Shown in pieces: positions 1,636 through 25,763 of a stretch of DNA of 25,763 bases (its first letter is position 1; each line of letters starts with the position of its first letter). The stretch lies in the IMG/VR virus record IMGVR_UViG_2609459852_000021, one strand, 5' to 3'. Under the pieces are notes generated by a model that was given only the letters and a program-made list of their open reading frames with translations, was not told the DNA's origin and made no database searches. This DNA is from a virus (lineage: Duplodnaviria; Heunggongvirae; Uroviricota; Caudoviricetes). A program made the translations under genes and the position numbers.

Positions 1636-5315
<3,680 letters not shown>

Positions 5316-5336
<21 letters not shown>

Positions 5337-6636
5337 TCTCCCGCATATTGCCAGCATGGCCTTTAATGAGCCGCTGATGCTTGACCCCGCCTATGCGCGG
5401 GTTTTCTTTTGTGCGCTTGCAGGCCAGCTTGGGATCAGCCGCCTGACGGATGCGGTGTCCGGTGACAGCCTGGTTGCCGGAGAGGTACCCGCGACGCTGG
5501 CGTTATCCGGTGATGATGACGGACCACGACAGGCCCGCAGTTATCAGGTCATGAACGGCATCGCCGTGCTGCCGGTGTCCGGCACGCTGGTCAGCCGGAC
5601 GCGGGCGCTGCAGCCGTATTCGGGAATGACCGGTTACAACGGCATTATCGCCCGTCTGCAACAGGCTGCCAGGGACCCGATGGTGGACGGCATTCTGCTC
5701 GATATGGACACGCCCGGCGGAATGGTGGCAGGGGCATTTGACTGCGCTGACATCATCGCCCGTGTGCGTGACATAAAGCCGGTATGGGCGCTGGCCAATG
5801 ACATGAACTGCAGTGCAGGGCAGTTGCTTGCCAGCGCCGCCTCCCGGCGTCTGGTCACGCAGACCGCCCGGACAGGCTCCATCGGCGTCATGATGGCTCA
5901 CAGTAATTACGGTGCTGCGCTGGAGAAACAGGGCGTGGAAATCACGCTGATTTACAGCGGCAGCCATAAGGTGGATGGCAACCCCTACAGCCATCTTCCG
6001 GATGACGTCCGGGAGACACTGCAGTCCCGGATGGATGCAACCCGCCAGATGTTTGCGCAGAAGGTGTCGGCATATACCGGCCTGTCCGTGCAGGCTGTGC
6101 TGGATACCGAGGCTGCAGTGTACAGCGGTCAGGAGGCCATTGATGCCGGACTGGCTGATGAACTTGTCAACAGCACCGATGCGATCACCGTTATGCGTGA
6201 TGCACTGGATGCACGTAAATCCCGTCTCTCAGGAGGGCGAATGACCAAAGAGACTCAATCAACAACTGTTTCAGCCACTGCTTCGCAGGCTGACGTTACT
6301 GACGTGGTGCCAGCGACGGAGGGCGAAAACGCCAGCGCGGCGCAGCCGGACGTGAACGCGCAGATCACCGCTGCGGTTGCGGCAGAAAACAGCCGCATTA
6401 TGGGGATCCTCAACTGTGAGGAGGCTCACGGACGCGAAGAACAGGCCCGCGTGCTGGCAGAAACCCCCGGTATGACCGTGGAAACGGCCCGCCGCATTCT
6501 GGCCGCAGCACCACAGAGTGCACAGGCGCGCAGTGACACTGCGCTGGATCGTCTGATGCAGGGGGCACCGGCACCGCTGGCTGCAGGTAACCCGGCATCT
6601 GATGCCGTTAACGATTTGCTGAACACACCAGTGTAA
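5316..6636 (+). CDS. C: prohead protease C (S49/ClpP-like), GTG start
   Basis: In-frame match to lambda gpC starting (V/M)TAELRNLPHIASMAF; GTG at 5316 preceded by GAGGAGGAG; the listed ORF 5182-6636 is the same frame extended upstream to an earlier ATG inside B. Confidence 0.88.
6241..6636 (+). CDS. nu3: scaffolding protein Nu3, nested in-frame within the 3' end of C
   Basis: Internal ATG at 6241 (MTKETQSTTVSATASQ...) preceded by AGGAGGG; shares frame and stop with C, as recalled for lambda Nu3. Confidence 0.7.
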   Translation: MTKETQSTTVSATASQADVTDVVPATEGENASAAQPDVNAQITAAVAAENSRIMGILNCEEAHGREEQARVLAETPGMTVETARRILAAAPQSAQARSDTALDRLMQGAPAPLAAGNPASDAVNDLLNTPV

Positions 6637-20494: not shown

Positions 20495-20521
20495 AGCCCG
20501 CCGGTTCAGGCGGGCTTTTTT
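20495..20521 (+). terminator. rho-independent terminator downstream of lom
   Basis: AGCCCGCC-GGTTCA-GGCGGGCT 8-bp stem followed by TTTTTT. Confidence 0.65.
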
Positions 20522-20532
20522 GTGGAGTGGAT

Positions 20533-22911
20533 ATGGCAGCAGTAAAAATCTCAGGTGTGCTGAAAGATGGTGCGGGAAAACCAATACAGAACTGCACTAT
20601 TCAACTGAAGGCAAAGCGTAACAGCACCACGGTACTGGTGAACACGGTGGCCTCTGAAAATCCGGATGAAGCCGGGCGTTACAGCATGGACGTTGAGTAT
20701 GGTCAGTACAGCGTCATCCTGTGGATTGAGGGTTCTCAGCCATCACATGTTGGGACCATTACCGTCTATGAAGGTTCCAGTCCGGGGACGCTGAATGATT
20801 TTCTCGGTGCCATGACGGAAGATGATGTCATGCCGGAGGCATTGCGCCGTTTTCAGGCAATGGTGGAAGAAGCGGCACGCAACGCCGAAGCCGCCTCTCA
20901 GAGCGCAGCGGCGGCAAAGAAATCCGAAACTGCAGCGGCATCATCGAAGAACGCGGCGAAAACCTCAGAAACGAATGCAGCTAATAGTGCACAGGCGGCA
21001 GCGACCTCAAAGACTGCATCGGCAAACTCCGCGACAGCAGCCAAAAAATCAGAAACCAACGCGAAAAATAGCGAGACAGCCGCAAAGACGAGCGAAACCA
21101 ACGCAAAGTCCAGCCAGACGGCAGCGAAAACCAGCGAAACGAATACCAAAGCCAGTGAAACTGCGGCGAAAAACAGCCAGGATGCAGCGGCCCAAAGCGA
21201 GAGTGCCGCAGCTGGTTCTGCAAGTGCGGCGGCTTCTTCTGCCACTGCATCAGCCAACAGTCAAAAAGCTGCAAAAACCAGCGAAACTAACGCAAAGTCC
21301 AGCCAGACGGCAGCGAAGACCAGCGAAACGAATGCCAAAGCCAGCGAAACTGCGGCGAAAAACAGTCAGGATGCAGCAGCCCAAAGCGAGAGTGCTGCAG
21401 CTGGTTCTGCAAGCGCGGCGGCTGCTTCTGCCACTGCATCAGCCAACAGTCAAAAAGCAGCAAAAACCAGTGAAACCAATGCAAAGACAAGCGAGACTGC
21501 AGCGGCGAACTCGGCGAAAGCATCGGCAGCAAGCCAGACAGCAGCTAAAGCAAGTGAAGACGCAGCCAGAGAGTATGCAAGTCAGGCAGCAGAGCCGTAT
21601 AAATATGTCTTACAGCCACTGCCTGATGTGTGGATACCATTTAACGATTCACTGGATATGATTACGGGCTTTTCGCCATCTTATAAAAAGATTGTTATTG
21701 GTGACGACGAAATAACGATGCCTGGTGACAAGGTGGTTAAGTTTAAACGCGCATCAAAAGCAACTTACATTAATAAATCTGGTGTGCTGACAGAGGCTAC
21801 CATTGACGAGCCACGATTTGAACGTGATGGCCTGCTTATTGAGGGGCAAAGAACGAACTTCTTCCCGAACAGTACAGACCCTTCGAAGTGGAATAAGTCA
21901 ACTTCACTGGACGTTACAGAAACAGGCACAGATAGTTTCGGTTTTAATTATGGCCGGTTTGTCGTACAGGATTCGATTGTTGGTACAAGTAAAGCGCATA
22001 CCATTATCGGACTGTATTCGAGTACCGGAGGGGTTGATACTTCAGGGGACGAAAAGTATGTAACTATATCCTGTCGGGTAAAAAGTGAAGTTGATAATAT
22101 CGACGTTCGTATTTTATTTGAACATTATGATGGGGAGGTAAGGACATCAATAGGAACAGCAAGCCTGAACCTTACCACCCGCATAATTAGCAAGACAGGT
22201 CAGACAAGCCGTGTTACAGCAAGGTCTGTTAAGGATGATGCAACTGGCTGGATATTTTTTGAGGCTACATTAAAAGCAGATACAACAGAAAATACGGTTG
22301 GTGGTTTCGTCCAGTATTCTCCGGATACAGGTCAGATGGTGGCATCAGGGGATTGTCTCGATGTAACCACTCCCCAGATTGAGGCTGGTACAGGCGCATC
22401 ATCTTTTATTGTTACGGGGGCTGCACCGGTAACGCGGGCAAGCGATATAGTTACAGTCCCAATTAAGAATAATCTTTATAATCTACCTTTTACGGTTCTT
22501 TGTGAGGTACATAAGAACTGGTATAAAACGCCAAATGCAGCACCGCGTGTTTTTGATACCGGCGGTCATCAAACCGGAGCGGCTATTATTCTTGGCTTCG
22601 GTTCTTCAGCAGATTACGACGGATTTCCTTATTGCGATATTGGTGGGGCTAACAGGCGGATAAACGAAAATGCATCGCTTGAAAAAATGGTTATGGGGAT
22701 GCGTGTAAAGTCAGATCAGTCTACATGCGCAGTAAGTAACGGGCGTATATCCAGCGAAACAAAAACCACATGGTCCTGTATTCAGAACTCCGCAATTATC
22801 CGTATTGGAGGCCAGACTACAGCCGGTTTACGCCATTTATTTGGTCATGTCAGGAATTTCAGAATATGGCACAAGGCATTGACTGATGCTCAGGTGGGGG
22901 AGTTAATCTAA
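20533..22911 (+). CDS. stf: side tail fibre protein (lambda Stf-like N-terminus, Ala/Ser/Thr-rich repeat shaft, non-lambda C-terminal receptor-binding region)
   Basis: N-terminus MAAVKISGVLKDGAGKPIQNCTIQLKA... matches lambda Stf; shaft built of SETNAK/TAAKTSE-type repeats; the C-terminal ~430 aa lacks the His-rich lambda tip and ends ...FRIWHKALTDAQVGELI (possibly a LamG/ConA-like jelly roll). Start at ATG 20533; an in-frame GTG lies at 20527. Confidence 0.88.
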   Translation: MAAVKISGVLKDGAGKPIQNCTIQLKAKRNSTTVLVNTVASENPDEAGRYSMDVEYGQYSVILWIEGSQPSHVGTITVYEGSSPGTLNDFLGAMTEDDVMPEALRRFQAMVEEAARNAEAASQSAAAAKKSETAAASSKNAAKTSETNAANSAQAAATSKTASANSATAAKKSETNAKNSETAAKTSETNAKSSQTAAKTSETNTKASETAAKNSQDAAAQSESAAAGSASAAASSATASANSQKAAKTSETNAKSSQTAAKTSETNAKASETAAKNSQDAAAQSESAAAGSASAAAASATASANSQKAAKTSETNAKTSETAAANSAKASAASQTAAKASEDAAREYASQAAEPYKYVLQPLPDVWIPFNDSLDMITGFSPSYKKIVIGDDEITMPGDKVVKFKRASKATYINKSGVLTEATIDEPRFERDGLLIEGQRTNFFPNSTDPSKWNKSTSLDVTETGTDSFGFNYGRFVVQDSIVGTSKAHTIIGLYSSTGGVDTSGDEKYVTISCRVKSEVDNIDVRILFEHYDGEVRTSIGTASLNLTTRIISKTGQTSRVTARSVKDDATGWIFFEATLKADTTENTVGGFVQYSPDTGQMVASGDCLDVTTPQIEAGTGASSFIVTGAAPVTRASDIVTVPIKNNLYNLPFTVLCEVHKNWYKTPNAAPRVFDTGGHQTGAAIILGFGSSADYDGFPYCDIGGANRRINENASLEKMVMGMRVKSDQSTCAVSNGRISSETKTTWSCIQNSAIIRIGGQTTAGLRHLFGHVRNFRIWHKALTDAQVGELI
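21085..21462 (+). repeat. perfect-frame tandem duplication, 2 x 189 bp (63 aa), inside stf; partial third unit to about 21490
   Basis: Units starting at 21085 and 21274 are near-identical at nucleotide level and encode KTSETNAKSSQTAAKTSETN(T/A)KASETAAKNSQDAAAQSESAAAGSASAAA(S/A)SATASANSQKAA twice. Confidence 0.85.
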
Positions 22912-23192
22912 TGAAAGATTTAACACTCAAATTTGTCGACAGGGCCGACTTTTCGGCCTTTATGGAGAGCATTGGCTATTATGATGACGAGTCGATGCAG
23001 GATGATATTCTTATTGACGTGATAGGTAATGTGTACAAAGAAACCGGAGAACTTACTGAAGATGGCGAGCCGGTATGTGTTAAGGAGGACGGATATTTTG
23101 TAAGCGTGCGCATCATTAATGATGCAAAAAAATCGTCAATATTCGATAAATACGCGATTGTTGTTGAGCATCAACTTCGTGGCTGGATGTGA
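22911..23192 (+). CDS. hypothetical acidic protein, 93 aa (possible tail-fibre chaperone or accessory protein)
   Basis: ATG overlaps the stf stop by 1 nt (TAATG); about 20 Asp/Glu against 10 Lys/Arg; no family recognised. Confidence 0.55.
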   Translation: MKDLTLKFVDRADFSAFMESIGYYDDESMQDDILIDVIGNVYKETGELTEDGEPVCVKEDGYFVSVRIINDAKKSSIFDKYAIVVEHQLRGWM

Positions 23193-23201
23193 GGGAGACA
23201 A

Positions 23202-23906
23202 ATGGCTACATCGACAGTAATTCCTGATGACATCAAAACGCTAAAGGGAGATGTCAGTAAAGCCAAGGAAGATATTTCCTCAATTAACGGAAAAGTATCA
23301 ACGCTTCAGACTGATATGACCAGTGCAAAGCAGGATATCAGCTCCAGATACACAAAAACTGAAGTTGATAATAAGCTGAAAAACAAACTGGAAGTGAACG
23401 CTCTGGAAAGCGGTCGTTATGGTGGAGATTTTTACCCGCTGACTGGCCGTGAAGCGTTTTATTTGTGGGGATTGGGCACGACTACAGCGGCGGCAAACCT
23501 TTATCTTAATCCTGACTCCGCAATTTCGTCTGTACTGCGGTCAACATCGTCTATCCGCTATAAAGATTCAGTAGAGACAATAGATTCAGAGCACGCCGAT
23601 CTCATTTTCAGGATGCGCCCTGTGTGGTACAGGTCGCAATGCGAAAATGACAGGCGTGACTGGGGATTCTACGGATTGATTGCCGAGGAAGTAGGAGAAA
23701 TTGCCCCTCAGTTTGTACACTGGCGACCAGCTAACGAGAATGATGCTCCTGAAGCTATTTCCAGCAATGGCCTTGTTGCCGAAGGTGTAATGTACGAACG
23801 TCTGGTTGTTCCACTGATTCACCATATCCAGAAACTGACTGAAAGAGTTGATGAACTTGAGTCAGAATTAAAGCTGTTATCAACTTCCCGAAGCGATATC
23901 GGATAA
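23202..23906 (+). CDS. small tail-fibre-like protein with C-terminal intramolecular chaperone (peptidase S74-like) domain
   Basis: RBS GAGGGAG; N-terminal heptad/coiled-coil segment (DIKTLKGDVSKAKEDISSINGKVSTLQTDMTSAKQDISS); C-terminal half carries S-x-x-R-x-K (SSIRYK), RPVWYR, GFYGLIAEEVGEIAPQFV, GVMYERLVVPLIHHIQKL and a terminal coiled coil, which I recall as the endosialidase/T5 pb1 chaperone-domain signature. Confidence 0.6.
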   Translation: MATSTVIPDDIKTLKGDVSKAKEDISSINGKVSTLQTDMTSAKQDISSRYTKTEVDNKLKNKLEVNALESGRYGGDFYPLTGREAFYLWGLGTTTAAANLYLNPDSAISSVLRSTSSIRYKDSVETIDSEHADLIFRMRPVWYRSQCENDRRDWGFYGLIAEEVGEIAPQFVHWRPANENDAPEAISSNGLVAEGVMYERLVVPLIHHIQKLTERVDELESELKLLSTSRSDIG

Positions 23907-23916
23907 AGGAGGAGTA

Positions 23917-24210
23917 ATGGATATAAGCCCCTTACTTCATGCACTTTGTGCTGTGGCTGCGCAGACACTGGTTGGTCTTTTTACCGGAAACTGGGCTTAC
24001 GGAGCGATAGCCGGTTGTGCGTTCTTCATTGCGCGTGAACACACCCAGGCAGAATATCGCTGGATTGAAATGTTCGGGCATGGCAAGCGAATGAATATGC
24101 CGTGGTGGGGCGGTTTTGATCCGCGCGCGTGGGATGTGGCAAGCCTGATGGATTTTGCTGTGCCGGTGGTGGCGTGTCTGCTGGTCTGGCTGTTGGTTAA
24201 TCGTGGGTGA
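23917..24210 (+). CDS. small membrane protein, 97 aa, about 3 predicted TM helices
   Basis: Strong RBS AGGAGG; hydrophobic segments PLLHALCAVAAQTLVGLFTG, AYGAIAGCAFFIA and FAVPVVACLLVWLLV; no family recognised. Confidence 0.5.
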   Translation: MDISPLLHALCAVAAQTLVGLFTGNWAYGAIAGCAFFIAREHTQAEYRWIEMFGHGKRMNMPWWGGFDPRAWDVASLMDFAVPVVACLLVWLLVNRG

Positions 24211-24220
24211 AAAAAGGTGA

Positions 24221-24349
24221 GCTGTATATGCAACGGAGGAAGAAACCTCGTTGCGGGAAGCCTGGAAGAAGTATCGGGTGTTGCTGAACCGTGTTGATAC
24301 ATCAACTGCACCTGATATTGAGCGGCCTGTGAACCCTGTCAGGGAGTAA
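24221..24349 (+). pseudogene. tfa: 3' remnant of a tail fibre assembly gene (tfa), no start codon
   Basis: Frame opens directly after a TGA and encodes ...[39 protein letters not shown], the conserved C-terminus of lambda-family Tfa proteins. Confidence 0.6.
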
Positions 24350-24363
24350 TCATTGGGATTATG

Positions 24364-24396
24364 CCGCAGCACGTCTTAAGCAAGAACGTGCTGCGG
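24364..24396. terminator. 10-bp stem-loop between the tfa remnant and the 3' end of the methyltransferase gene (possible bidirectional terminator)
   Basis: CCGCAGCACG-(13-nt loop)-CGTGCTGCGG; a T-run (TATTTTTT) follows about 10 nt downstream on the + strand, so the terminator call is weak. Confidence 0.35.
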
Positions 24397-24403
24397 TTGG
24401 ATG

Positions 24404-25072
24404 CTATTTTTTCCCTGAAGCGGAAAACATTACTACAGTACCTTGAACCTTGGTTTTAACATTCTCGAAATGCTCTGAGAGTATATGTGTTAAGCCTTCT
24501 TCGGAATCTTTTGTGTTTGAAAAGATGCCTTTCTGATTGTAAATGCGCATCAGTTTTTGACCGAAGCTATTGTGCACAACTCCATCGCCAAGAATTGTGG
24601 CTCCGTATAGAGTTCCATCGTCAGTTAAGGCCTGCGCCGCATTGCGTATTACACAGCTTTTTGTAGATATATTTCCAGGCAGGCAGTGAAGAAGGTAAAA
24701 CATGGAAATGGAATCAAATTGACCATGTAACGTCGCGGGATAAGGTTCAAAAACATCATGGCTAATTTTATGTTTAATTTTTGATTCCCCAGCCCTTGTA
24801 GATGCCGCGTTCAGGCTAGCTTCGTTCAAATCCATTAAAGATATCAGACTACTCTCAGGTACGTGAGTAAGGTAAAACCCAGTTCCAACACCAATATCCA
24901 GATGGTTGTTACCTAAATGTTCCAGAAAGTGTGGAAGAAGGTGTTCCTTTGTAGGACATCCCCATGCAAGCCGATTTGATACTCCCAAAACCCACCAGTC
25001 ATAAAGCTTTAGGGTAAGTGGTGTGTAAATTTTAGCCCCATCATCTGTGTTTTTTTTCATTAATTTCACCAT
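24404..25072 (-). CDS. class I SAM-dependent methyltransferase, substrate unknown (probable start at 25060, MKKNTDD...)
   Basis: Minus-strand ORF with Rossmann motif I LDIGVGTGFY, an acidic post-I strand (SLMDLNEAS) and FDSISMFYLLHCLP; no DPPY/NPPY or Pro-Cys motif, so it is unlikely to be a DNA methyltransferase; AT-rich. Confidence 0.75.
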   Translation of the reverse strand: MVKLMKKNTDDGAKIYTPLTLKLYDWWVLGVSNRLAWGCPTKEHLLPHFLEHLGNNHLDIGVGTGFYLTHVPESSLISLMDLNEASLNAASTRAGESKIKHKISHDVFEPYPATLHGQFDSISMFYLLHCLPGNISTKSCVIRNAAQALTDDGTLYGATILGDGVVHNSFGQKLMRIYNQKGIFSNTKDSEEGLTHILSEHFENVKTKVQGTVVMFSASGKK

Positions 25073-25128: not shown

Positions 25129-25398
25129 ATGCTGCCGCAGCATAGCGATATTGAAATAGCCTGGTATGCTTCGATACAGCAGGAGCCGAATGGCTGGAAG
25201 ACCGTCACCACACAGTTCTACATCCAGGAATTCAGTGAGCATATTGTGCCACTTCAGGATGCTGTAGATCTGGAGATCGCAACGGAGGAAGAAAACTCGT
25301 TGCTGGAAGCCTAGAGGAAGTATCGGGTGTTGCTGAACCGTGTTGATACATCAACTGCACCTGATATTGAGTGGCCTGCAAATCCTGTCAGGGAGTAA
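25129..25398 (+). pseudogene. tfa: truncated tfa-like gene with in-frame amber codon at 25312-25314
   Basis: Encodes [91 protein letters not shown]; the amber codon falls where Tfa homologues have Trp (TGG); the frame opens immediately after a TAA, so the N-terminus is much shorter than in the 194-aa lambda Tfa. Confidence 0.55.
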
Positions 25399-25448
25399 TC
25401 ATTGGGATTATGCCGCAGACACGTCGTATGCAGGAACGTGCTGCGGTT
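25262..25448 (+). repeat. direct repeat copy 2 (tfa 3' end plus downstream hairpin)
   Basis: About 90% identical to 24215-24398; includes an imperfect hairpin at 25413-25446. Confidence 0.8.
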
Positions 25449-25514: not shown

Positions 25515-25763
25515 TTAGTGAACAAACCACTCGTCAGCAGACTCCCAGGTATCTTTCAGAGTTTCCTGAACAAAAGTTTTAGCTGAATCTTTATCGGCGG
25601 TGCGCGTAACAGAAAGGCCATCGTTGCTGGTGGCTTTTACGATCACCTCTACATCGTCATAACGTTTACTGATGCGTCGGGTTAATTCTTCCTTTAACGC
25701 ATCCACAGCACCGGTTGGCATTTTAGTCATTTTTTCTTTGGCTATGCAGATTTCAATACGCAT
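25515..25763 (-). CDS. DinI-like protein
   Basis: 82-aa minus-strand [40 protein letters not shown]...[15 protein letters not shown] resembling the DinI family; start codon sits at the last three bases of the window, so the upstream region is not visible. Confidence 0.8.

What the first reader, a model, noticed from the sequence alone, without database searches (positions are those of the whole stretch)
23202..23906. Stand-alone mini-fibre carrying an autoproteolytic chaperone domain
Chaperone domains of this type normally sit at the C-terminus of large tailspikes and L-shaped fibres, are trimerisation-dependent and are cleaved off at a Ser-Lys dyad. Here the same signature (SSIRYK, then RPVWYR, GFYGLIAEEVGEIAPQFV, VMYERLVVPLIHHIQKL) makes up the C-terminal half of a 234-aa protein whose mature part would be only about 115 aa. 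That is either an unusually small trimeric fibre or whisker, or a 5'-deleted remnant of a larger fibre gene that has kept a start codon and RBS.
Basis: partly seen in the sequence, partly recalled or inferred. Interest (0 to 1): 0.6.

Follow-up and report, generated by a model that had tools for sequence, protein, structure and literature searches.

The report
Minimal distal subunit of side tail fibre
This small gene in an E. coli lambda-like prophage is real, intact and conserved, and is most likely the short outer piece of a two-protein side tail fibre that folds with a self-cleaving chaperone domain; it is an ordinary member of a known fibre design, odd only in having no recognisable receptor-binding domain.

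Summary
The ORF at 23202-23906 encodes 234 aa. Residues 116-234 match Peptidase_S74 above Pfam's cut-off, and the Ser116/Lys121 dyad is invariant in 30 homologues.

It is not a decaying remnant. dN/dS is 0.17, about 95% of sampled copies are intact, and 740 of 5426 complete E. coli genomes carry a copy covering at least 80% of the gene. Full-length homologues of 221-231 aa occur in virulent Drexlerviridae.

It is also not truly stand-alone. It is the third gene of a cassette: Stf-type proximal fibre, a 93-aa protein, then a distal fibre. The cassette is shared by lambdoid, Drexlerviridae, Nonagvirus, Dhillonvirus and T5-like phages. In phage IrisVonRoten the homologous trio is Gp22-Gp23-Gp24, and Gp24 has been modelled as a distal fibre attached to Gp22. 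Gp24 starts with the same motif (MVTKTVIPTDITKLK) as this protein (MATSTVIPDDIKTLK).

Alleles at this position are 234, 346-351 and 574-580 aa, or absent in phage 21. The 234-aa allele keeps only four parts:
- the N-terminal adaptor
- a heptad coiled coil of about 36 aa
- a tip of about 50 aa
- the chaperone domain

Best reading: an RBD-less minimal distal fibre subunit. Cleavage, trimer formation and docking are all inferred, not shown. I rate it a new member of a known kind, of modest interest.

The parts
20527..22911 (+). Side tail fibre (Stf), 794 aa. This is the proximal fibre of the cassette, built from a phage_tail_N anchor, Ala/Ser/Thr-rich repeats and a C-terminal region of about 530 aa ending in a LamG/galectin-like segment.
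   Evidence: Pfam phage_tail_N E=9e-64. The first ~94 aa match solved tail fibre chain 9e7m_Ta at E=1.5e-46. Laminin_G_3 matches weakly at the extreme C-terminus (E=0.0019, below cut-off). Residues 133-794 are 52.6% identical to IrisVonRoten Gp22, and the protein is 45-54% identical to Drexlerviridae lateral tail fibres over the last ~530 aa.
22911..23192 (+). A 93-aa acidic protein (pI 4.3) of unknown role that always follows this Stf type. It may be an Stf assembly factor or a junction protein.
   Evidence: phrog_1361 E=7e-45, with no Pfam, NCBIfam or PDB match. Homologues lie directly after a tail-fibre gene in 181 phage records from lambdoid, Drexlerviridae, Dhillonvirus, Nonagvirus, T5-like and rV5-like phages. 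It is 36% identical to IrisVonRoten Gp23. The AF2 model was unusable (pLDDT 42).
23191..23197 (+). Shine-Dalgarno sequence GAGGGAG of the 234-aa gene, overlapping the stop codon of the 93-aa gene.
   Evidence: Read from the sequence. The 9-nt intergenic gap is identical in 84 of the 86 sequences examined (85 fetched loci plus the window); the clear exceptions are the two Drexlerviridae loci, with gaps of 2 and 12 nt. No promoter-like or terminator-like site lies between stf and the 97-aa gene.
23202..23261 (+). N-terminal adaptor (codons 1-20, MATSTVIPDDIKTLKGDVSK), shared by all distal-fibre alleles of this cassette.
   Evidence: Nucleotide similarity to the 346/351-aa alleles of Tritos and ESCO3 runs through the Stf 3' end and the 93-aa gene, stops at 23245 (Tritos) or 23261 (ESCO3), and in Tritos resumes at 23916. 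The same motif starts IrisVonRoten Gp24, SIA3lw_44, JenP2 gp, PhiR11_1 and KarlBarth gp30.
23232..23339 (+). Predicted coiled-coil stalk (codons 11-46).
   Evidence: Eleven consecutive a/d heptad positions are hydrophobic: I11 L14 V18 A21 I25 I28 V32 L35 M39 A42 I46. AF2 predicts helix 9-47 with pLDDT 73-82. In-frame indels among homologues are 7, 14 or 21 aa. There is a weak match to the P22 gp26 trimeric needle (E=0.027).
23349..23546 (+). Fibre-repeat-like motif YTKTEVDNKL plus a small tip (codons 50-115). Codons ~85-115 form the generic pre-cleavage segment that travels with S74 domains.
   Evidence: Homology to the C-termini of long fibres (539-1243 aa, 50-59% identity) starts at residues 26-50. 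Most of the 3677 S74 relatives align from residue ~84-93 onward. T93, T94, N99, R113, S114 and T115 are invariant or nearly so. dN/dS is 0.14. The segment is not modelled in the monomer (pLDDT <50).
23547..23564 (+). SSIRYK: candidate autoproteolytic dyad of Ser116 (nucleophile) and Lys121, with the scissile bond Thr115|Ser116.
   Evidence: S116, S117 and K121 are invariant in 30 homologues. The Pfam S74 match starts at residue 116. The site aligns with SGIEYK of DT57C LtfA (8hqz_d) and with the MyRF ICA domain.
23547..23906 (+). Intramolecular chaperone / Peptidase_S74 domain (residues 116-234) with a C-terminal helix, followed by the stop codon.
   Evidence: Pfam PF13884 at 27.1 bits against a cut-off of 22. 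AF2 pLDDT is 70-88 over ~125-232, with helix 198-232. Foldseek against the PDB ranks MyRF ICA domain 7dc3 first (E=6e-4, prob 1.0), then the phage chaperone structures 3gud and 3gw6 (E 0.3-0.5).
23917..24210 (+). A 97-aa predicted membrane protein. It forms the conserved downstream flank of the variable distal-fibre slot and is probably not part of the fibre.
   Evidence: phrog_1443 E=4e-57. It is 98% identical to phage 21 CPT_21_24, annotated 'putative membrane protein', which in phage 21 directly follows the 92-aa gene with no distal fibre in between.

Best explanation
The 234-aa protein is the distal subunit of a two-protein side (lateral) tail fibre, in its most reduced form.

Proposed sequence of events:
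1. It is co-transcribed with stf and the 93-aa gene from the late operon.
2. Three chains are brought into register by the C-terminal S74 chaperone domain. This nucleates folding of the short beta-rich tip (residues ~63-115) and the trimeric coiled coil (residues 11-46).
3. Ser116, assisted by Lys121, then cuts the Thr115|Ser116 bond and releases the 13.7-kDa chaperone.
4. The mature 3 x 12.5-kDa needle docks through its conserved N-terminal adaptor (MATSTVIPDDIKTLK...) onto the distal end of the Stf trimer, next to the Stf C-terminal lectin-like domains, possibly with the 93-aa protein.
5. It then forms the outermost tip of the fibre.

Shown here: domain identity, invariance of the dyad, intactness and purifying selection, the cassette structure, the shared adaptor, and homology to IrisVonRoten Gp22-Gp23-Gp24.

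Inferred: trimerisation, cleavage, docking on Stf, presence in the virion, and any receptor contact.
For: (1) S74 domain. It scores above the curated cut-off and the Ser/Lys dyad is invariant. The predicted fold is closest to solved autoprocessing chaperone domains.

(2) Fixed position. In all 79 IMG/VR loci with a close 93-aa gene where downstream sequence is available, the next gene starts 9 nt later with MA[T/I]STVIP (one further locus ends too early to judge). There are 49 intact short-type and 22 intact long-type (346 aa) copies, and both types carry S74.

(3) Allele boundaries. Swaps are bounded by codon ~15-20 and the stop codon, so the adaptor is inherited with the Stf C-terminus and the 93-aa gene, not with the variable part.

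(4) Spread across phage families. The three genes co-occur in lambdoid prophages, Drexlerviridae (KarlJaspers, PeterMerian), Nonagvirus (ESCO3, JenP2), Dhillonvirus and T5-like phages. Only the N-terminal virion anchor of the large fibre changes with phage family, while the small protein's N-terminus stays the same. This argues that it docks on a cassette partner rather than on the virion body.

(5) Published model. IrisVonRoten Gp22 is 52.6% identical to this Stf, and Gp24 begins MVTKTVIPTDITKLK. AlphaFold-Multimer models place Gp24 as a distal fibre attached to proximal fibre Gp22, which has a C-terminal galectin-like domain (PMC11990801). Genetic precedent: DT57C LtfB attaches to the virion via LtfA, and both carry pfam13884 (PMC4728585).

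(6) The same module at fibre ends. The YTKTEV + tip + chaperone module ends single-polypeptide lambdoid side tail fibres that carry phage_tail_N (P0181 of 958 aa, P0183 of 735 aa; 58-59% identity).

(7) Selection and coiled coil. dN/dS is 0.17. The heptad register is clean and indels come in multiples of 7 aa.
Against: There is no experimental evidence for cleavage, trimer formation, virion incorporation or docking for this protein or any close homologue.

The monomer AF2 model is poor (mean pLDDT 61, and <50 for residues 55-124). No multimer prediction could be run.

The mature part has no recognisable receptor-binding domain, and its tip is as conserved as the chaperone (dN/dS 0.14, pN 0.026). 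The middle domain of the 346-aa allele has pN 0.10. That conservation is atypical for a host-range determinant.

Phage 21 and lambda recombinants carry Stf and the 92-aa gene without any distal-fibre gene, so the subunit is dispensable for at least some Stf of this class.

BASEL annotators labelled the Drexlerviridae homologue 'putative lateral tail fiber chaperone'. The role of the 93-aa protein is unknown.
Confidence: 0.63

Rival explanations
1. Trans-acting assembly chaperone. The protein is not a virion component. Its S74 domain and coiled coil transiently help the Stf (which has neither Tfa nor a cis chaperone domain) to trimerise, and it is then discarded.
For: The Drexlerviridae homologues are annotated 'putative lateral tail fiber chaperone'. 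The cassette encodes no Tfa-type chaperone and the Stf has no S74 domain. The mature part lacks an RBD and is strongly conserved.
Against: The cleavage dyad is invariant. That makes sense only if the N-terminal part is released as a product.

The same slot and the same adaptor carry alleles with large extra domains (346, 351, 574 and 580 aa), one of which is modelled as a distal fibre (PMC11990801).

The identical module works in cis at the end of long fibres.

Phage 21 keeps Stf and the 92-aa gene without this gene, so this Stf class does not generally need it to fold.
Confidence: 0.15
2. Independent mini-fibre or whisker. A separate short trimeric needle attaches directly to the tail or neck, independently of Stf, in the manner of T4 fibritin.
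For: It is a short coiled coil with a C-terminal trimerisation device. There is weak similarity to the P22 gp26 needle (E=0.027).
Against: Its N-terminus is conserved across phage families with different tails (lambdoid, T1-like, 9g-like, T5-like, Dhillonvirus). It always follows the same Stf C-terminal type and the 93-aa gene. A direct virion anchor would be expected to co-vary with the phage family, as the N-terminus of the large fibre does.
Confidence: 0.1
3. RBD-deleted but tolerated stub. The gene is a recent internal deletion or recombinant of a longer distal fibre. It merely caps the docking site and contributes nothing to adsorption.
For: It has no RBD. The slot can be empty (phage 21). 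The C-terminal 185 aa look like the end of long fibres joined to the adaptor.
Against: Its age and spread argue against a neutral stub:
- 55-60% identical full-length homologues exist in virulent Drexlerviridae.
- 23 distinct nucleotide alleles give dN/dS 0.17, including in the mature part.
- 740 E. coli genomes carry a copy covering at least 80% of the gene.
Confidence: 0.08
4. Decaying 5'-deleted pseudogene remnant of a large fibre gene.
For: PHROG 3299 aligns the whole protein to positions 1147-1384 of a 1385-position profile.
Against: Purifying selection, a conserved start codon, RBS and length, intactness in about 95% of copies, and presence in viable phages.
Confidence: 0.02

Closest known systems
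IrisVonRoten (Bas32, Tequintavirus) lateral tail fibre Gp22-Gp23-Gp24 (PMC11990801)
   Same: The gene order is the same: proximal fibre, a ~92-aa protein, then a distal fibre with a C-terminal S74 chaperone.

The window Stf is 52.6% identical to Gp22 over residues 133-794, and both end in ...RHLFGH(V/I)RNFRIWHK.LTD. The 93-aa protein is 36% identical to Gp23. Gp24 begins MVTKTVIPTDITKLK, compared with MATSTVIPDDIKTLK here.
   Different: Gp24 is 574 aa and carries two predicted receptor-binding domains (gp12-like and T5-like), giving a T-shaped fibre. The window protein is 234 aa, with only a coiled coil and a ~50-aa tip between the adaptor and the chaperone. The virion anchor of the proximal fibre also differs: phage_tail_N here, T5-type there.
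DT57C / DT571/2 branched L-shaped tail fibres LtfA + LtfB (PMC4728585, PMC10713586)
   Same: It is a two-protein lateral fibre in which the second protein reaches the virion only through the first, by way of a conserved N-terminal segment. Both proteins end in pfam13884. The best PDB sequence match of the window protein is LtfA chain 8hqz_d (E=8.5e-6).
   Different: LtfB is a large O-antigen-binding protein attached as a side branch to LtfA, and LtfA itself carries a chaperone domain. No 93-aa homologue or shared adaptor motif was shown for DT57C here.
Endosialidase / T5 pb1 / GA-1 gp12 C-terminal intramolecular chaperone domain (Peptidase_S74; PDB 3gw6, 3gud) and the MyRF ICA domain (7dc3)
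   Same: There is a profile match. The Ser-x4-Lys dyad sits at the domain start, the domain is C-terminal, a terminal helix is predicted, and the fold matches.
   Different: In those proteins the domain ends large tailspikes or fibres (or a eukaryotic transcription factor) and templates a long triple beta-helix. Here it makes up half of a 26-kDa protein, and the segment it would template is about 30-50 residues plus a coiled coil.
346-351-aa allele at the same slot (phages Tritos, 2G7b, HannyBb, PhiR11_1, ESCO3, JenP2)
   Same: The flanks, the 9-nt spacing, the first 15-20 residues and the C-terminal S74 domain are the same (E=4.8e-14).
   Different: It carries a middle domain of about 190 aa that is much more divergent between copies (pN 0.10, against 0.03 for the mini allele's mature part).
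Single-polypeptide lambdoid side tail fibres ending in the same module (P0181 of 958 aa, P0183 of 735 aa)
   Same: They have a phage_tail_N anchor and a C-terminal YTKTEV + tip + S74 module that is 58-59% identical to residues ~50-234.
   Different: The module is fused to the fibre shaft. There is no adaptor, no 93-aa gene was shown, and there is no LamG-like Stf end.

Membership tests
Peptidase_S74 / intramolecular chaperone (IMC) domain | Profile match above the curated threshold | tested here: met
   PF13884 at 27.1 bits against a gathering score of 22, E=5.2e-6, residues 116-172 covering profile positions 1-57 of 58. There are 3677 relatives at E<=1e-3 in an exhaustive search.
Peptidase_S74 / intramolecular chaperone (IMC) domain | Catalytic Ser with Lys five residues downstream, at the N-terminal edge of the domain | tested here: met
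   S116 and K121 (SSIRYK) are invariant in 30 homologues down to 29% identity. The +5 spacing in endosialidase is from my own knowledge.
Peptidase_S74 / intramolecular chaperone (IMC) domain | Located at the extreme C-terminus, preceded by a fibre or spike segment that it helps fold | tested here: met
   The domain spans 116-234 of 234 residues. The conserved pre-cleavage segment 85-115 travels with the domain in thousands of proteins.
Peptidase_S74 / intramolecular chaperone (IMC) domain | IMC fold (helix-rich domain with a long C-terminal helix) | tested here: inconclusive
   The AF2 monomer has pLDDT 70-88 for ~125-232 and predicts helix 198-232. Foldseek gives MyRF ICA 7dc3 at E=6e-4 and prob 1.0, but the phage IMCs 3gud and 3gw6 only at E 0.3-0.5, with high rmsd.
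Peptidase_S74 / intramolecular chaperone (IMC) domain | Trimerisation-dependent self-cleavage that releases the domain | not testable with these tools
   This needs expression, SDS-PAGE and mass spectrometry, and S116A/K121A mutants.
Two-protein lateral/side tail fibre of the IrisVonRoten Gp22-Gp23-Gp24 type | Homologous proximal fibre immediately upstream | tested here: met
   The Stf is 52.6% identical to Gp22 over 743 aligned positions and the extreme C-terminus is conserved.
Two-protein lateral/side tail fibre of the IrisVonRoten Gp22-Gp23-Gp24 type | A ~92-aa protein lies between the two fibre genes | tested here: met
   The 93-aa protein is 36% identical to Gp23 (E=3e-22).
Two-protein lateral/side tail fibre of the IrisVonRoten Gp22-Gp23-Gp24 type | Distal-fibre N-terminal adaptor motif M-[AV]-T-x-T-x-I-P-x-D-I-x-x-L-K | tested here: met
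   MATSTVIPDDIKTLK here, compared with MVTKTVIPTDITKLK in Gp24 and SIA3lw_44, MVTKTIIPTDITTLK in JenP2, MVTKTNIPADITALK in KarlBarth and MATVTVIPSDITKLK in PeterMerian.
Two-protein lateral/side tail fibre of the IrisVonRoten Gp22-Gp23-Gp24 type | Receptor-binding domain(s) in the distal subunit | tested here: not met
   No domain other than S74 was found. Only about 50 non-generic residues lie between the coiled coil and the chaperone-linked segment. The protein is therefore filed as a reduced member and not as a T-shaped fibre.
Two-protein lateral/side tail fibre of the IrisVonRoten Gp22-Gp23-Gp24 type | Physical attachment of the distal subunit to the proximal fibre in the virion | not testable with these tools
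   Only monomer prediction was available. In the literature this attachment is itself an AlphaFold-Multimer model (PMC11990801).
Tfa-type tail fibre assembly chaperone | Sequence or profile similarity to Tfa / gp38 / Mu-type assembly proteins | tested here: not met
   Neither the 234-aa nor the 93-aa protein has a Pfam, NCBIfam or PHROG match to tail fibre assembly families.

The most novel reading that the evidence does not exclude
The RBD-less mini subunit is not a receptor binder. It would instead be a regulatory or structural cap of the Stf. Its chaperone-driven trimer could plug the distal docking site and so set the geometry or exposure of the three C-terminal lectin-like Stf domains. 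It could also nucleate the Stf distal end in trans. On this reading, phages switch between 'no tip', 'blunt tip' and 'RBD tip' states by cassette exchange. That would be an intramolecular chaperone domain put to intermolecular, architectural use.
Probability: 0.12. Interest if true: 0.55.

Novelty: new member of a known kind. Interest (0 to 1): 0.3.

Why it matters
The finding sharpens annotation of a gene found in roughly one in seven complete E. coli genomes and in many therapeutic-type coliphages (Drexlerviridae, Nonagvirus, T5-like). Databases currently give it three conflicting labels.

It also defines a portable three-gene fibre cassette. A ~15-residue adaptor marks the exchange point for distal fibre modules, which is useful for host-range engineering and for predicting receptor-binding proteins.

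The minimal allele, at 26 kDa and 12.5 kDa after cleavage, would be a convenient small model for studying S74 chaperone-driven trimer folding and fibre-to-fibre docking.

None of this overturns current understanding of tail fibres.

Tried and rejected
(1) Structure of the 93-aa protein. AF2 with a shallow alignment (18 sequences, 81-92% identity) gave pLDDT 42. The model was unusable and no fold search was run on it.

(2) AF2 monomer of the target. It was informative only for helix 9-47 and the chaperone domain. Residues 55-124 were <50 pLDDT, so the tip fold remains unknown. No multimer tool was available.

(3) PDB sequence searches. The 93-aa protein and the Stf C-terminal half gave nothing meaningful.

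(4) NCBIfam. No family matched the 234-, 93- or 97-aa proteins.

(5) Literature. No paper testing this small protein was found. Searches on the phage names PhiR49/ECOR13, on 'chaperone of endosialidase' with mass spectrometry, and in the KanT1 Drexlerviridae paper gave nothing specific.

(6) The PHROG 3299 hit to positions 1147-1384 of 1385. It first suggested a truncated long fibre. I rejected that reading because the big-database searches found no long protein covering residues 1-25, and the selection and conservation data speak against a remnant.

(7) One call failed on an out-of-frame coordinate and was repeated in frame.
Full report
**Setting**

The window is the late region of an E. coli lambda-like prophage, running from terminase through tail genes, J and lom. 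After lom come five genes:
- a 794-aa side tail fibre (Stf) at 20527-22911
- a 93-aa ORF at 22911-23192
- the 234-aa target at 23202-23906
- a 97-aa membrane-like ORF at 23917-24210
- a minus-strand methyltransferase at 24404-25072

The target is 100% identical at the nucleotide level to genes in several complete E. coli genomes. A copy covering at least 80% of it occurs in 740 of 5426 genomes, where PGAP calls it 'tail fiber domain-containing protein'.

**Observation**

Pfam Peptidase_S74 matches residues 116-172 above the curated cut-off (27.1 against 22 bits). In a 30-sequence alignment reaching down to 29% identity, S116, S117 and K121 are invariant, together with the RPVWYRS and GLIAEE blocks.

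An exhaustive phmmer search found 3677 relatives. Most align from query residue ~85 onward, at the C-terminal end of longer proteins. The AF2 monomer model is weak overall (pLDDT 61) but reasonable for the chaperone domain. Its best PDB matches are the MyRF autoprocessing domain (E=6e-4), followed by the phage chaperone structures 3gud and 3gw6.

The predicted scissile bond is T115|S116, which would give fragments of 12.5 and 13.7 kDa.

**Remnant or real gene?**

I fetched 80 IMG/VR loci through the neighbouring 93-aa gene. In all 79 with sequence downstream, the next gene starts 9 nt after the stop codon with MA[T/I]STVIP.... The complete ORFs comprise 49 intact short-type copies (227-234 aa), 22 intact long-type copies (345-346 aa) and 4 truncated ones.

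Twenty-three distinct nucleotide alleles of the 234-aa form give these dN/dS values:

| Region | dN/dS |
|---|---|
| Whole gene | 0.17 |
| Mature part, 1-115 | 0.21 |
| Coiled coil, 1-65 | 0.28 |
| Tip, 66-115 | 0.14 |
| Chaperone, 116-234 | 0.13 |

The gene is full length in isolated phages PhiR49_1 and IdasGreatGrand. Virulent Drexlerviridae carry 221-231-aa homologues that are 55-60% identical over the whole length. The '5'-deleted remnant' reading is therefore rejected.

**Not stand-alone: a three-gene cassette**

The last ~530 aa of Stf, the 93-aa protein and the small protein are co-conserved between the lambdoid prophage and Drexlerviridae, at 45-54%, 46-51% and 57-59% identity respectively. 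The same arrangement occurs in Nonagvirus ESCO3 and JenP2. Only the N-terminal virion anchor of the large fibre changes with phage family.

At the nucleotide level, similarity to phages carrying a 346/351-aa gene in the same slot runs through the Stf 3' end and the 93-aa gene. It stops at codon 15-20 of the small gene, and in Tritos it resumes exactly at the next gene. The first ~15-20 residues are therefore inherited with the upstream partners, and everything after them is an exchangeable module.

The 93-aa family is present in 181 phage records, always directly after a tail-fibre gene. These include T5-like, Dhillonvirus and rV5-like phages.

**Link to a described system**

In T5-like phage IrisVonRoten the homologous trio is Gp22, Gp23 and Gp24:
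- Gp22 (796 aa) is 52.6% identical to this Stf.
- Gp23 (92 aa) is 36% identical to the 93-aa protein.
- Gp24 (574 aa) has a C-terminal S74 domain and begins MVTKTVIPTDITKLK.

The BASEL 2025 paper (PMC11990801) models Gp24 as a 'T-shaped' distal fibre with two receptor-binding domains. In that model it attaches to the proximal fibre Gp22, whose C-terminus carries a galectin-like domain. This fits the weak Laminin_G_3 signal at the end of the window Stf.

The earlier DT57C work (PMC4728585, PMC10713586) showed genetically that a second chaperone-bearing fibre protein can reach the virion only through the first.

The same adaptor also heads SIA3lw_44 (580 aa), JenP2 (348 aa), PhiR11_1 (346 aa) and KarlBarth gp30, which has a non-S74 C-terminal part. 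Phage 21 has Stf, the 92-aa gene and then directly the 97-aa membrane protein (98% identical to the window's), so the slot can be empty.

**Anatomy of the 234-aa allele**

- **Residues 1-10:** adaptor.
- **Residues 11-46:** eleven consecutive hydrophobic a/d heptad positions, predicted helical with pLDDT 73-82. Homologues differ here by indels of 7, 14 or 21 residues.
- **Residues 50-59 (YTKTEVDNKL):** homology begins here, or at residue 26 in one case, to the C-termini of long fibres of 539-1243 aa at 50-59% identity. These include lambdoid Stf proteins with a phage_tail_N anchor, P0181 and P0183.
- **Residues ~85-115:** the generic pre-cleavage segment that accompanies S74 domains.
- **Residues 116-234:** the chaperone domain.

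No room is left for a dedicated receptor-binding domain. The mature part also varies little between copies (pN 0.03). The middle domain of the 346-aa allele has pN 0.10.

**Mechanism proposed (inferred)**

The chaperone domain brings three chains into register and nucleates the tip and the coiled coil. Ser116/Lys121 then release the chaperone. The mature 3 x 12.5-kDa needle docks through its adaptor on the distal end of the Stf trimer and forms a blunt outer tip. The Stf lectin-like domains may provide most of the glycan contact.

I put this at about 0.63. The rivals are:

| Rival | Confidence | Main evidence against |
|---|---|---|
| Trans-acting Stf chaperone (as BASEL annotated) | 0.15 | Invariant cleavage dyad; RBD-bearing alleles in the same slot; phage 21 lacks the gene |
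| Independent whisker | 0.10 | Cross-family conservation of the N-terminus |
| Tolerated RBD-less stub | 0.08 | Age, spread and purifying selection |
| Pseudogene | 0.02 | Selection and intactness data |

**Verdict**

However, the protein is one subunit of a known type of composite lateral tail fibre, and the family is already labelled, inconsistently, in databases. It is a new, minimal member of a known kind, of modest interest (0.3). The most interesting open point is what an RBD-less distal tip is for.

Noticed in passing
window 24230-24369 and 25279-25418: A 140-nt direct repeat (94% identical) brackets the minus-strand SAM-methyltransferase gene at 24404-25072 (YbcY-like, phrog_2132). It looks like a moron-type insertion between duplicated target sequence. 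Tritos matches both repeat copies to a single locus region, 5799-5900.
   Followed up: partly
window 20822-21660 (inside stf): The Stf has a long internal tandem duplication of Ala/Ser/Thr-rich units (AAKTSETNAKSSQTAAKTSETNAKASETAAKNSQDAAAQSESAAAGSA...). It is visible in the translation and as offset self-similar blastn hits. Copy number probably sets the length of the fibre shaft.
   Followed up: no
locus L090 (phage 21, OL657228) 1944-4585: Phage 21 has the same Stf class, a 92-aa gene (51% identical) and the same 97-aa membrane protein (98% identical), but no distal-fibre gene in between. Lambda_ev recombinants also carry a 92-aa homologue and the 97-aa gene in this region; their slot was not inspected. 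The slot therefore shows presence/absence polymorphism.
   Followed up: partly
locus L091 (KarlBarth, Dhillonvirus) 3270-4149: gp30 (98 aa) starts with the same adaptor, MVTKTNIPADITALK, but continues into a non-S74 C-terminal part that is annotated as two overlapping ORFs (gp30 and gp31). This could be a frameshift or a genuinely split distal fibre.
   Followed up: no
window 22911-23192: A 93-aa acidic protein (pI 4.3) with no family assignment anywhere follows a lateral tail fibre gene in 181 phage records across at least six phage groups. It is a widespread, uncharacterised fibre accessory protein. Structure prediction failed.
   Followed up: partly
window 23917-24210: A 97-aa protein with predicted transmembrane segments (phrog_1443) is conserved at 96-98% nucleotide or protein identity downstream of the fibre slot in many lambda-like phages, whichever fibre allele is present. 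It may be a lysogenic-conversion or exclusion gene.
   Followed up: no
window 20495-20516: A strong GC-rich hairpin followed by a T-run lies between lom and stf. It is terminator-like, with 8 pairs of which 7 are GC. Phage 21 has an annotated terminator at the equivalent place after J.
   Followed up: no
window 25515-25763, minus strand: An 82-aa ORF ([11 protein letters not shown]...DEWFVH) runs to the very end of the window on the minus strand; from memory it resembles DinI-like DNA-damage-inducible proteins. PhiR47_1 has a gene annotated 'DNA damage-inducible protein' at a similar position.
   Followed up: no
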